UHGV virus genome: UHGV-2170543
Length of the DNA: 33,672 nt
Reading direction: 5' to 3' (one strand)
Source: a virus
Part shown: piece after piece, positions 30,012 to 30,986 of the stretch
Layout of the letters: every line of letters begins with the position of its first letter
Numbering within the stretch: position 1 is the stretch's first letter
Position numbers and translations under genes: made by a program
Notes under the pieces: generated by a model
What the model was told of the DNA's origin: nothing
The model's database searches: none
The model's input: the letters and a program-made list of their open reading frames with translations, nothing else

Positions 30012-30026
30012 CACTTATTTTCCCTG

Positions 30027-30050
30027 GCTCGCTTTTGCGGGCTTTTTTTT
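30027..30050 (+). terminator. hairpin + U-tract terminator downstream of tRNA cluster (copy B)
   Basis: GCTCGC-TTTT-GCGGGC followed by TTTTTTTT. Confidence 0.45.
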
Positions 30051-30325
30051 AAATGTCTCACAATTCAGGCGGTTGACTGTTGTCTGGTTTGCGGGGAGTT
30101 TGTTAAAAGAAACTGGCATGGTGAATCCCCCTGTGCGGAGGGGCAATCAGCGAGTAGGTATATGGGATAATCGCGGATTCAGGTGCTGGTACTGAATTCA
30201 CCGGGAGGCACCCGGCACCATGCAATGGCACATAGCGCCACTCTCCAGCCCCTCTCCGGAGGGGCTTTTCTGTGCCGGATACATCACAGTTTCTGGAACC
30301 TTAGGTACTACAGTATCAGTCAGGG

Positions 30326-30487
30326 TGCTATATTTTCAGATGTGATGAAAGCCTGTCAGCAGGCAGGGCGTATCGGAAATGACCCAGTAGAGAAAACGTT
30401 GACTCAGATACCGGTGCTGAGTTACCGGGAAACCGGCATCACATGACCGCTATCCTTCCAGGCCCATCCGCTCCGGTGGGCCTTTTT
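30326..30487 (+). other. candidate small transcript (sRNA or 33-aa micro-ORF) with its own promoter and terminator
   Basis: Extended -10 TGcTATATT at 30326-30334; ATG at 30345 opens a 33-codon ORF (MKACQQAGRIGNDPVEKTLTQIPVLSYRETGIT); terminator GGCCCA-loop-TGGGCC + TTTTT at 30461-30487; absent from copy A. Confidence 0.2.
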
Positions 30488-30986
30488 ACTGCAGAAAACA
30501 GGTTCCCCGTTAAATGCTATGTTGCTCACAATTCAGTAAGTTGACAGTTGCCTGTCAGACTGGGCATTTGTTAAAAAAATTTCGCATGGTGAATCCCCCT
30601 GAGCGGAGGGGCGACTGGTGACGGTATAATCTCTGATTATCAAAACGAGAATGACGCGGGTTTAGTGGCACCGGGCTGAACTCACCGGGAGGCACCCGGC
30701 ACCATGTGCATGATGATACAGATACGCGGCTTTAGCCCCTCTCCGGAGGGGCTTTCTTATGGACAAAAAAAGCCCGCGCTGGGAGACGCGGGCGGCAAGG
30801 AATAAACAATAAAACGTGAAGTAATATTTCAGCTGGCGAATAATACCCCATAGTAATCACTCTGCGCAACTGCGCGGTCTTTTTCGAATTGCGGGCTGTA
30901 GTCTCCCTTCTGCCATTGTCCTGTAACTTCCGGACTTCAGCCTGCTCCTTATCTGACTCACAACATTATCCCGCCCGGGAGGATTC

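What the first reader, a model, noticed from the sequence alone, without database searches (positions are those of the whole stretch)
30012..30986. Structured non-coding interval between tRNAs and nanS-p, tandemly duplicated in copy B with a candidate small transcript
The interval where Stx-type phages carry stxAB contains no toxin genes here, but a series of hairpins: CCCCT-GTGCGG-AGGGG, CCGGG-AGGCA-CCCGG and the terminator-like AGCCCCTC-TCCG-GAGGGGCT followed by a T-rich tail (TTTCT). Copy A (6919-7410, minus strand) has one such unit; copy B has two (about 30055-30290 and 30527-30760) separated by a unique insert carrying an extended -10 promoter, a 33-codon ORF and a terminator (30326-30487). 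Prophage late regions of pathogenic E. coli are known to encode Hfq-binding regulatory sRNAs, so this is a plausible place for one.
Basis: partly seen in the sequence, partly recalled or inferred. Interest (0 to 1): 0.5.

Follow-up and report, generated by a model that had tools for sequence, protein, structure and literature searches.

The report
Prophage cluster of STnc100-family small RNAs
The "structured non-coding interval" is a cluster of small regulatory RNA genes of a known prophage family (STnc100/EcOnc27/PasD), and the only new point is that the supposedly unique insert is a third, strongly diverged and unannotated copy of the same kind of gene.

Summary

The repeated unit is a described family. 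Rfam STnc100 (RF02076) scores 136 and 165 bits in copy B and 132 bits in copy A. Published work equates it with the Hfq-bound sRNA EcOnc27/sRNA103 found 3' of stx2B, and relates it to EPEC PasD1/PasD2.

The insert (about 30340-30488) is not unique DNA. It folds into the same architecture as the flanking units. It scores 30 bits with Rfam (below the 47-bit cut-off) and 36 bits (E 2e-6) with my own model built only from canonical units, close to PasD at 40 bits. It occurs in 673 of 5,426 complete E. coli genomes and almost always sits between two canonical units.

The two canonical units are 71% identical, so they are old paralogs and not a recent duplication. The 33-codon ORF is probably spurious. 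A convergent sRNA gene lies on the minus strand: AsxR in copy A, and an EcOnc08/21/42-type gene in copy B.

This is mostly known biology, with one new divergent family member. No expression data exist for these particular copies.

The parts
29762..30011 (+). tRNA operon (Ile2/CAU called Met by ARAGORN, Arg-UCG, Arg-UCU). Context only; forms the upstream boundary of the slot.
   Evidence: ARAGORN; Rfam tRNA hits; RefSeq annotation tRNA-Ile, Arg, Arg.
30026..30051 (+). The tRNA operon's own intrinsic terminator (GGCTCGCTTTTGCGGGCT followed by T8).
   Evidence: Terminator scan. The same element occurs in copy A at 7396-7379 and upstream of stx2A in an Stx2a phage.
30080..30109 (+). Predicted sigma-70 promoter of unit 1: -35 TTGTCT (30080-30085), 17-nt spacer, TTAAAA / TGnTAAAAG (30101-30109).
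   Evidence: Read from the sequence. A TTGnnn-17-TTAAAA arrangement 12-14 nt before GCATGG is kept in 43 of 53 distinct upstream contexts, including otherwise unrelated PasD contexts. It fails the strict consensus scan. Inferred, not shown.
30116..30271 (+). STnc100-family sRNA gene, unit 1 (about 156 nt): body 30116-30223, linker 30224-30246, terminator 30247-30266 plus U tail.
   Evidence: Rfam RF02076 136.3 bits at 30087-30277; own model R1 118.9 bits; fold; terminator.
30326..30334 (+). Extended -10 promoter element of the middle unit (TGcTATATT).
   Evidence: Read from the sequence. Invariant in all alleles retrieved. 93% identical between the two array lineages where the upstream spacer is 67%.
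30340..30488 (+). Middle unit: a diverged, unannotated STnc100/PasD-superfamily sRNA gene (about 149 nt). Closing helix GAUGUGAUG/CAUCACAU, three internal hairpins, C/U-rich linker ACCGCUAUCCUUCC, terminator 30460-30483 plus U5.
   Evidence: Rfam RF02076 30.1 bits over the full model, E 2.4e-4, below the 47-bit cut-off. R1 36.3 bits, E 2.2e-6. MFE fold shows the same architecture, z = -2.65. Structure-preserving allele differences. Present in 673 of 5,426 genomes.
30345..30446 (+). 33-codon ORF (MKACQQAGRIGNDPVEKTLTQIPVLSYRETGIT) lying inside the middle unit. Probably not translated.
   Evidence: ORF list. No Shine-Dalgarno sequence, and the start codon lies in the closing helix. 5 nonsynonymous to 2 synonymous differences between alleles. 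No Pfam match. The only protein-family match is PHROG 23557, unknown function.
30548..30577 (+). Predicted promoter of unit 2: -35 TTGCCT (30548-30553), 17-nt spacer, TTAAAA / TGnTAAAAA (30569-30577).
   Evidence: Sequence; conserved architecture; identical promoter immediately after stx2B in phage LC567838. Inferred.
30584..30758 (+). STnc100-family sRNA gene, unit 2 (about 175 nt): body 30584-30707, linker, terminator 30734-30753.
   Evidence: Rfam RF02076 165.4 bits at 30555-30764; R1 110.5 bits; fold; terminator.
30765..30834 (-). Convergent short sRNA gene (about 70 nt) forming a dyad with unit 2. Terminator stem 30793-30772 plus U7. The motif CCUUGCC (plus-strand GGCAAGG, 30794-30800) is complementary to the GGCAAGG/GGCAGGG motif enriched in the RIL-seq targets of its EPEC homolog. 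Candidate promoter: -10 TATTAT 30845-30840, -35 TTGCGC 30869-30864.
   Evidence: Terminator scan. About 95% identical to the E2348/69 PP6 locus E2348C_1409-1408.IGR, a RIL-seq sRNA candidate whose authors list EcOnc08/21/42 as EHEC homologs. Identical in an Stx2a phage. No AsxR or AgvB hit at E<=1. TSS inferred.
7127..7335 (-). Copy A: a single STnc100-family sRNA gene (body 7184-7306, terminator 7157-7138). It is a mosaic: the promoter, 5' arm and hairpin 1 resemble unit 1, and the linker and terminator resemble unit 2.
   Evidence: Rfam 131.7 bits; R1 121.5 bits; alignment A1; BLAST 79% to unit 1 and 77% to unit 2.
7071..7123 (+). Copy A: AsxR (anti-FnrS sponge sRNA) convergent with the STnc100 unit.
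   Evidence: Rfam RF02703 63.0 bits, exactly at the gathering score of 63; terminator 7101-7118.

Best explanation
The interval is the 'moron slot' of a toxin-less, Stx-phage-like lambdoid prophage, and it is filled with small-RNA genes.

**Content.** Copy B carries three same-strand tandem genes of the STnc100/EcOnc27/sRNA103/PasD superfamily. Two are canonical (about 30116-30271 and 30584-30758). One is strongly diverged (about 30340-30488). A short convergent sRNA gene lies on the minus strand (about 30834-30765). Copy A carries one canonical unit plus convergent AsxR.

**Unit design.** Each unit is a self-contained transcription unit with a weak-consensus or extended -10 sigma-70 promoter. 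Its RNA starts at the first base of an 8-9-bp closing helix that encloses three hairpins. A variable single-stranded linker of 14-27 nt follows, and then an intrinsic terminator with a U tail.

**Proposed mechanism, by homology (inferred).** The RNAs are made in the lysogen independently of Q. They bind Hfq through the terminator and U tail. They act in trans by pairing the variable linker with mRNAs or other sRNAs. The conserved body serves as a stabilising scaffold. As a secondary effect, the four + strand terminators between the tRNAs and nanS-p keep nanS-p and the lysis genes dependent on Q antitermination from pR'.

**Shown versus inferred.** Shown here: family membership, shared structure, conservation and genomic arrangement. 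Inferred: promoter use, Hfq binding, targets and the insulating role.
For: **Family membership and structure**
- Rfam RF02076 hits of 136, 165 and 132 bits.
- The middle unit scores 30.1 bits over the full-length model. With my own model R1, built only from 34 canonical bodies, it scores 36.3 bits (E 2e-6), against 40 bits for PasD1/2 and 14.9 bits for the best background hit.
- Independent MFE folds of all three units give the same architecture.
- On the 10-sequence alignment, 98.7% of cells pair and 12 of 26 pairs show changes on both sides. None of 500 shuffles reaches this, and slid controls pair at 35-46%.

**Conservation of the middle unit**
- Its two alleles differ by structure-preserving changes in hairpin 1 and the terminator.
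- Its RNA is 90% identical and its -10 element 93% identical between array lineages. Flanking spacers are 67-83% and the flanking units 65-66%.

**Promoter and transcript boundaries**
- The promoter architecture is kept in unrelated upstream contexts.
- The annotated PasD2 5' end (741157) is exactly the G of GCAUGG, which is model position 1.

**Context**
- The tRNA operon has its own terminator. pR'/tR' lie directly after Q.
- An Stx2a phage has stx2AB between the tRNAs and an STnc100 unit, followed by the same convergent sRNA.

**Literature**
- EcOnc27/sRNA103 is Hfq-crosslinked and Northern-positive, and is equated with STnc100 (PMC4104026, PMC7873438, PMC12711010).
- PasD1/2 are reported as Northern-validated, Hfq-dependent and RIL-seq-supported (PMC8550237).
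- PasD-STnc100 structural homology is described in bioRxiv 10.64898/2026.05.13.724894.
- RpoD ChIP-exo signal at STnc100 promoters in Salmonella LT2 (PMC10794520).
Against: - No transcript, 5'-end or Hfq data exist for these copies, or for any copy of the middle unit.
- The predicted -10 hexamers of the canonical units (TTAAAA/TAAAAA) lack the conserved -7 T and fail a standard consensus scan.
- The middle unit is below Rfam's curated threshold and has only two real alleles, so covariation within its own subfamily is thin.
- The alignment used for pair counts was fitted to the model.
- No target of STnc100/EcOnc27 has been shown to be direct. The literature calls its function unclear (PMC7873438, PMC12370729).
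- Fold z-scores of the canonical units are modest, at -1.6 and -1.7.
Confidence: 0.8

Rival explanations
1. The units act only in cis. They are the terminator and insulator region downstream of the tRNA operon (a stack of terminators that blocks read-through into nanS-p and the lysis genes unless Q is present), with no independent expression or trans-acting function.
For: Four + strand intrinsic terminators lie between the tRNAs and nanS-p. The slot lies within the Q-antiterminated late operon. No expression data exist for these copies.
Against: The tRNA operon already has its own strong terminator at 30026-30043. A terminator needs about 30 nt, yet about 110-nt structured bodies and promoter-like elements upstream of them are conserved. 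Homologs accumulate as discrete RNAs that associate with Hfq and whose 5' ends sit at the predicted start (PMC4104026; PMC8550237).
Confidence: 0.1
2. The middle unit is, or also is, a small-protein gene. The 33-codon ORF 30345-30446 (55 codons in the other allele) would be translated, which would make the insert a micro-ORF moron or a dual-function RNA.
For: The ORF is intact in both alleles. It matches PHROG family 23557 (unknown function) at E 4e-19 for the 33-aa form and 7e-30 for the longer reading. Phage records annotate hypothetical proteins there.
Against: - There is no Shine-Dalgarno sequence, and the ATG is 5 nt from the predicted TSS, inside the closing helix.
- Allele differences are 5 nonsynonymous to 2 synonymous, and they cluster where they preserve hairpin 1.
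- The ATG that gives the 55-codon form in the other allele is ATA in the window. This rests on my own reading.
- There is no Pfam match.
- PHROGs are built from predicted ORFs. PHROG 24488 likewise matches an ORF antisense to canonical unit 2, which shows that such calls are made over these sRNA genes.
Confidence: 0.07
3. The middle unit is a decaying pseudogene or recombination scar of an STnc100 unit and is no longer expressed.
For: It has no BLAST-level similarity to any canonical unit or to PasD. It is below the Rfam threshold. Its diversity is low, with two alleles. In the L009-type loci its terminator has been replaced.
Against: Across the two lineages it is the best conserved segment of the whole array, at 90% against 65-83% for the neighbours. 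It keeps a near-consensus extended -10 and a strong terminator in both lineages. The substitutions that did occur preserve the helices. It is retained in 673 genomes.
Confidence: 0.12
4. The units are late-promoter leader modules (pR'-qut-tR' analogs like lambda 6S RNA or StxS), meaning early-terminated late transcripts and not independent sRNA genes.
For: The layout of promoter, short structured RNA and terminator resembles pR' leaders. StxS shows that such leaders can be Hfq-binding sRNAs (PMC7873438).
Against: A separate promoter-terminator pair sits immediately after Q (27608-27636 and 27671-27694). The same holds in L004. The units lie 2.4 kb further downstream, beyond a kinase/phosphatase moron and the tRNAs, and they occur in tandem.
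Confidence: 0.03

Closest known systems
STnc100 (Rfam RF02076), equated in the literature with EcOnc27 (E. coli O157 Sakai) and sRNA103 (EDL933)
   Same: Units 1, 2 and A exceed the family's gathering score several-fold. They occupy the same position as in Stx2 phages, upstream of nanS-p/yjhS and convergent with a short sRNA. They share the 4-helix body and terminator.
   Different: Here no stx operon precedes them. Copy B has two canonical units plus a diverged one instead of a single unit. The linker sequences differ between units: at least 15 linker types occur among the canonical units sampled.
PasD1/PasD2 of EPEC E2348/69 (listed by their authors as homologs of EcOnc13)
   Same: Like the middle unit, they are sub-threshold structural relatives of STnc100: 38-41 bits with Rfam and 40 bits with R1, against 30 and 36 bits for the middle unit. 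The architecture, the prophage late-region location upstream of nanS-p or the holin, and the size of about 150-173 nt are the same.
   Different: There is no detectable sequence similarity between the middle unit and PasD. The PasD seed UGUGAG is absent. The middle unit's linker is ACCGCUAUCCUUCC. Its closing helix and hairpin sequences differ, and its promoter is a near-consensus extended -10.
Convergent sRNA dyads downstream of pR' in lambdoid prophages (AsxR/EcOnc27 and AgvB/EcOnc06; Tree et al. 2014)
   Same: Copy A is an AsxR + STnc100 dyad. Copy B ends in a dyad of unit 2 with a convergent short sRNA whose terminator abuts that of unit 2.
   Different: Copy B's convergent partner is not AsxR or AgvB by covariance model. 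It is the EcOnc08/21/42-type RNA, corresponding to E2348C_1409-1408.IGR. The dyad is preceded by two further same-strand units.
StxS / lambda 6S RNA (pR'-tR' early-terminated late leader)
   Same: It is a short, terminator-ended, Hfq-binding RNA from the same late region.
   Different: It arises at pR' directly after Q. That element is separately present here at 27608-27694. There is no sequence or structural relation to the units.

Membership tests
STnc100 (Rfam RF02076) | Covariance-model score at or above the curated gathering score (47 bits) | tested here: met
   Unit 1 scores 136.3 bits, unit 2 165.4 bits and the copy A unit 131.7 bits.
STnc100 (Rfam RF02076), middle unit | Covariance-model score at or above the curated gathering score (47 bits) | tested here: not met
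   30.1 bits over the full-length model, E 2.4e-4 in 1.4 kb. This is significant but below the threshold, as are PasD1/2 at 37.7 and 41.4 bits. I therefore place it in the wider STnc100/PasD superfamily and not in RF02076 as curated.
STnc100/PasD superfamily | Shared secondary structure: 8-9-bp closing helix, hairpin 1, hairpin 3, hairpin 4 abutting the 3' arm, then linker and intrinsic terminator | tested here: met
   Independent MFE folds of the three units agree. R1 hits are full-length. 98.7% of cells pair, and 12 of 26 pairs change on both sides.
STnc100/PasD superfamily | Location in the lambdoid prophage late region between Q/pR' and the lysis genes, next to nanS-p | tested here: met
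   RefSeq annotation of the identical locus in VR50, E2348/69 and an Stx2a phage.
STnc100/PasD superfamily | Discrete Hfq-associated transcript | not testable with these tools
   Known only for homologs: EcOnc27 by Hfq-CRAC and Northern (PMC4104026, PMC7873438), and PasD by RIL-seq and Northern (PMC8550237).
PasD1/PasD2, middle unit | BLAST-level sequence similarity to PasD and the UGUGAG seed in the linker | tested here: not met
   No hit between the middle unit and PasD at E<=10 with word size 7. The linker is ACCGCUAUCCUUCC and lacks UGUGAG.
AsxR (Rfam RF02703) | Covariance-model score at or above the gathering score (63 bits), convergent with STnc100 | tested here: met
   Copy A, 7071-7123 (+): 63.0 bits, exactly at the threshold. 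In copy B the convergent RNA gives no AsxR or AgvB hit at E<=1, so the feature is not met there.
EcOnc08/21/42-type sRNA (E2348C_1409-1408.IGR) | Sequence identity to the RIL-seq-defined EPEC locus, including the CCUUGCC motif | tested here: met
   About 95% identity over the RNA and its promoter. CCUUGCC is present. The published target motif is GGCAAGG/GGCAGGG.
Small protein (PHROG 23557) | Translation signals and purifying selection on the ORF | tested here: not met
   No Shine-Dalgarno sequence. 5 nonsynonymous to 2 synonymous differences. No Pfam match. The PHROG match shows only that gene callers have predicted ORFs there.
pR' leader RNA (StxS / lambda 6S type) | Starts at the late promoter immediately downstream of Q | tested here: not met
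   Q ends at 27624. A promoter-like site (27608-27636) and terminator (27671-27694) lie there. The units are 2.4 kb downstream.

The most novel reading that the evidence does not exclude
The STnc100/PasD scaffold may be a modular 'seed-cassette' platform. The conserved promoter, body and terminator would act as recombination handles through which variable centres and linkers are reassorted, and units can be stacked into tandem arrays of up to four in the moron slot. On this reading the middle unit is a functional, previously undescribed Hfq-binding sRNA. Its C/U-rich linker (AUCCUUCC) would give the lysogen a regulatory specificity distinct from its two neighbours.
Probability: 0.35. Interest if true: 0.45.

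Novelty: new member of a known kind. Interest (0 to 1): 0.3.

Why it matters
Prophage late-region sRNAs such as AsxR, AgvB, StxS and EcOnc27 rewire core regulation in pathogenic E. coli. Variation in EcOnc27/STnc100 has been statistically linked to clinical outcome in O157 (PMC12711010).

Three points follow from this work:
- A commensal/ExPEC-type, toxin-less prophage carries the same sRNA slot as Stx phages.
- A third, diverged family member escapes Rfam-threshold annotation in about 12% of complete E. coli genomes, so the catalogue of candidate regulators is larger than current annotation shows.
- Gene callers place spurious ORFs over these loci, which should be flagged.

The modular reassortment of linkers suggests a way in which target specificity could diversify. 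None of this changes the basic picture already published.

Tried and rejected
- **Wasted genome scan.** I scanned genome contigs with the 15-mer GCATGGTGAATCCCC. It returned only chance matches in unrelated phyla because the pattern was too short for 596 Gb.
- **No further middle-unit alleles.** An exact 24-mer scan of IMG/VR and nhmmer over 2 Mb of fetched loci gave only two real alleles plus a terminator-replaced variant. The only other hits were weak ones (E about 0.006) to some canonical units, so within-subfamily covariation could not be extended.
- **BLAST.** The middle unit against units 1, 2, A and PasD gave nothing significant.
- **Literature sequence search.** Full-text search for the middle unit's sequence found nothing. 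It found only the STnc100 qPCR primer of PMC12370729.
- **Protein families.** Pfam on all small ORFs of the interval gave no credible hit. The PHROG hits were judged to be over-called ORFs.
- **pR' leader hypothesis.** Rejected, because pR'/tR' lie right after Q.
- **AsxR/AgvB for copy B's convergent RNA.** Rejected by covariance model. The weak OmrA-B hit (25 bits, E 0.036) was treated as noise.
- **Not checked.** I did not check whether Sakai, EDL933 or another strain with published sRNA maps carries the middle unit.
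Full report
**What is there.** The window matches complete E. coli genomes at 100% identity, including VR50, ML35 and ATCC 11775. RefSeq annotation of the identical locus gives this order: RusA, Q, Ser/Thr kinase, PP2C phosphatase, a truncated DNA methyltransferase, tRNA-Ile/Arg/Arg, about 1 kb of unannotated DNA, a SASA-family esterase (nanS-p), holin and lysozyme. 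A promoter-like site and a terminator lie directly after Q (27608-27636 and 27671-27694), so the late promoter and its short leader are accounted for there. The tRNA operon has its own terminator at 30026-30043.

The region holds 10 terminator-like sites, against 1.7 +/- 1.3 in shuffles.

**Identity of the repeated unit.** Rfam's STnc100 model (RF02076, gathering score 47) matches three places:

| Location | Strand | Bits |
|---|---|---|
| 30087-30277 | + | 136.3 |
| 30555-30764 | + | 165.4 |
| 7127-7335 | - | 131.7 |

All three matches span the full model. In copy A, AsxR (RF02703) lies convergent at 7071-7123 with 63.0 bits, exactly at its threshold.

The literature supports the sRNA reading:
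- STnc100 overlaps EcOnc27, an Hfq-crosslinked and Northern-confirmed sRNA immediately 3' of stx2B in O157 Sakai. The same RNA is called sRNA103 in EDL933 (PMC12711010; PMC7873438).
- Tree et al. described convergent sRNA pairs in the moron slot downstream of pR' in eight Sakai prophages (PMC4104026).
- Zhu, Shabalina and Storz report structural homology between STnc100 and the EPEC sRNAs PasD1/PasD2 (bioRxiv 10.64898/2026.05.13.724894).
- PasD1/PasD2 are 172-173 nt, and their authors report Northern validation, Hfq-dependent stability and RIL-seq support (PMC8550237).

In an Stx2a phage the order is methylase, tRNAs, stx2A, stx2B, an STnc100 unit and yjhS.

**The 'unique insert' is a third, diverged unit.**
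- At E-value thresholds, the Rfam model also matches 30316-30489 over its full length, at 30.1 bits and E 2.4e-4.
- BLAST finds no similarity between the insert and units 1, 2, A or PasD.
- Its minimum-free-energy fold, computed without any model, has the same architecture as the two canonical units. A 9-bp closing helix (GAUGUGAUG/CAUCACAU) encloses a hairpin just after the 5' arm, a long hairpin, and a short hairpin abutting the 3' arm. A single-stranded linker and a terminator follow.
- I built a covariance model (R1) from 34 canonical STnc100 bodies taken from IMG/VR contigs, excluding the insert and PasD. With filters off, it gave these scores:

| Sequence | Bits | E-value |
|---|---|---|
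| Insert (window 30340-30444) | 36.3 | 2.2e-6 |
| Second allele of the insert | 28.9 | 1e-4 |
| PasD1 and PasD2 | 40 | 3e-7 |
| Best background hit | 14.9 | 0.16 |

- On the resulting 10-sequence alignment, 98.7% of cells form standard pairs and 12 of 26 pairs have changes on both sides. None of 500 shuffles reaches this, and slid registers pair at 35-46%. The caveat is that this alignment was fitted to the model.

**Conservation of the array.**
- The insert occurs in 673 of 5,426 complete E. coli genomes as two alleles: at least 99% identity in 345 records and about 90% in 327. It also occurs in 5 phage records.
- In the second lineage (L004) it is again flanked by two canonical units.
- Among 118 insert-bearing loci (116 fetched from IMG/VR plus the VR50 and L004 loci), it is nearly always preceded by, and usually followed by, a canonical unit.
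- Between the two lineages the insert RNA is 90% identical and its -10 element 93%. The flanking spacers are 67% and 83%, and the flanking units 65-66%.
- The differences within the insert cluster in hairpin 1 and the terminator, and both remain hairpins.
- Units 1 and 2 are only 71% identical. Copy A's unit is a mosaic of a unit-1-like 5' part and a unit-2-like linker and terminator. The array is therefore an old set of paralogs and not a recent duplication.

**Promoters and ends.**
- Canonical units carry TTGyCT, 17 nt, then TTAAAA (readable as TGnTAAAAR), placed 12-14 nt before GCAUGG. This spacing holds in 43 of 53 distinct upstream contexts, including PasD contexts whose upstream sequence is otherwise unrelated.
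- The annotated 5' end of PasD2 (741157) is exactly the G of GCAUGG.
- These hexamers fail a strict consensus scan, so promoter use is inferred.
- The insert has a near-consensus extended -10 (TGcTATATT), invariant in all alleles.

**The ORF.** The 33-codon ORF (30345-30446) has no Shine-Dalgarno sequence and starts inside the closing helix. It differs between alleles by 5 nonsynonymous and 2 synonymous codon changes. It has no Pfam match. It does match PHROG 23557 (unknown function). Another PHROG matches an ORF antisense to canonical unit 2, which shows that gene callers over-call ORFs on these sRNA genes. I rate translation as unlikely but not excluded.

**Opposite strand.** In copy B, a strong minus-strand terminator (30793-30772) ends a predicted RNA of about 70 nt. 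This region is about 95% identical to the E2348/69 locus E2348C_1409-1408.IGR, a RIL-seq sRNA candidate whose authors list EcOnc08/21/42 as EHEC homologs. The motif CCUUGCC, complementary to the published target motif GGCAAGG, is retained. The same sequence follows the STnc100 unit in the Stx2a phage. In copy A the same slot, between conserved flanks, holds AsxR instead.

**Family-level pattern.** Among the canonical units sampled, I distinguished at least 20 types of central region and at least 15 linker types. One central type is combined with seven different linkers, and there are three four-gamete violations. This indicates recombination within the conserved hairpin 4 and 3' arm. Some units join a canonical body to a 3' part that, by my own reading of the alignment, resembles the PasD 3' domain. 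Among 100 STnc100-bearing viral loci first retrieved by the canonical-motif scan (which therefore exclude the triple arrays fetched earlier), most have a single unit. L305 and L268 have two tandem units and L245 has four.

**Mechanism and verdict.** The best-supported reading is a cluster of independently transcribed, terminator-ended, Hfq-type sRNA genes in the moron slot. The variable linker is the likely pairing region, because the PasD seed lies there. A secondary insulating effect of the stacked terminators on nanS-p and the lysis genes is plausible. Family membership, structure and arrangement are shown. Expression, Hfq binding and targets are inferred from homologs.

However, the family and its arrangement are already published. 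The new element is a diverged, unannotated third member embedded in a conserved three-unit array.

Noticed in passing
window 30765-30869 (minus strand): A convergent short sRNA gene with a strong terminator and a CCUUGCC motif. It is about 95% identical to the EPEC RIL-seq candidate E2348C_1409-1408.IGR (EHEC homologs EcOnc08/21/42 according to its authors). It occupies the slot that AsxR occupies in copy A, between conserved flanks, which suggests cassette-like replacement.
   Followed up: yes
window 30057-30068, 30527-30538; copy A 7364-7353 (minus); L351 2606-2617: A conserved box, CTCACAATTCAG, lies just upstream of the promoter hexamers of nearly every canonical STnc100 unit. Its function is unknown. 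CUCACA is also the motif enriched in RIL-seq targets of PasD (seed UGUGAG).
   Followed up: no
window 15479-15667 and 16345-16530 (minus strand): There are two tandem copies, about 865 bp apart, of an isrK plus C4 antisense RNA pair (Rfam RF01394 and RF01695, all above threshold). They lie inside two adjacent paralogous ORFs of the other prophage arm.
   Followed up: no
window 24746-24917 (+): A sok antitoxin RNA (RF01794, 106.7 bits) lies beside an annotated hokD toxin gene in the early region of the copy B prophage.
   Followed up: no
window 27608-27694 (+): A promoter-like site overlaps the end of Q, followed by an intrinsic terminator. This is the expected pR'/tR' short leader, at the position StxS occupies in Stx phages.
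   Followed up: partly
window 27696-29712 (+): A Ser/Thr kinase plus PP2C phosphatase pair and a 5'-truncated DNA methyltransferase lie between pR' and the tRNAs. In an Stx2a phage the methylase there is longer (at least 1,059 bp).
   Followed up: no
L245 2326-3350 (minus); L305 1392-1785; L268 5648-5993: Other viral contigs carry tandem arrays of STnc100-type bodies without the middle unit: four units in L245 and two each in L305 and L268.
   Followed up: partly
L264 5430-5611, L329 7717-7898, L261 537-732: These units have a canonical STnc100 body joined to a long C/U-rich linker and a GGCTGCGCATGGCG terminator start. By my own reading of the alignment this resembles the PasD 3' domain, which would make them mosaics linking the two named families.
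   Followed up: partly
window 30106-30231 (minus), 30555-30695 (minus), 30183-30446 (+): RefSeq (a pseudo 'hypothetical protein') and the PHROG families 24488 and 23557 place ORFs over these sRNA genes. These are probably annotation artefacts.
   Followed up: partly
window 1-18000 (minus-strand genes) versus 17800-33672 (plus-strand genes): The window holds two divergently oriented lambdoid gene sets, each running from early genes to Q, tRNAs, nanS-p and lysis genes. This suggests two abutting or rearranged prophages. Their late slots differ in sRNA content.
   Followed up: no
window 30127-30143 versus 30247-30266: Hairpin 1 and the terminator hairpin of one unit are 88% identical over 17 nt (BLAST self-hits). 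Alternative pairing between them is possible. This was not tested.
   Followed up: no
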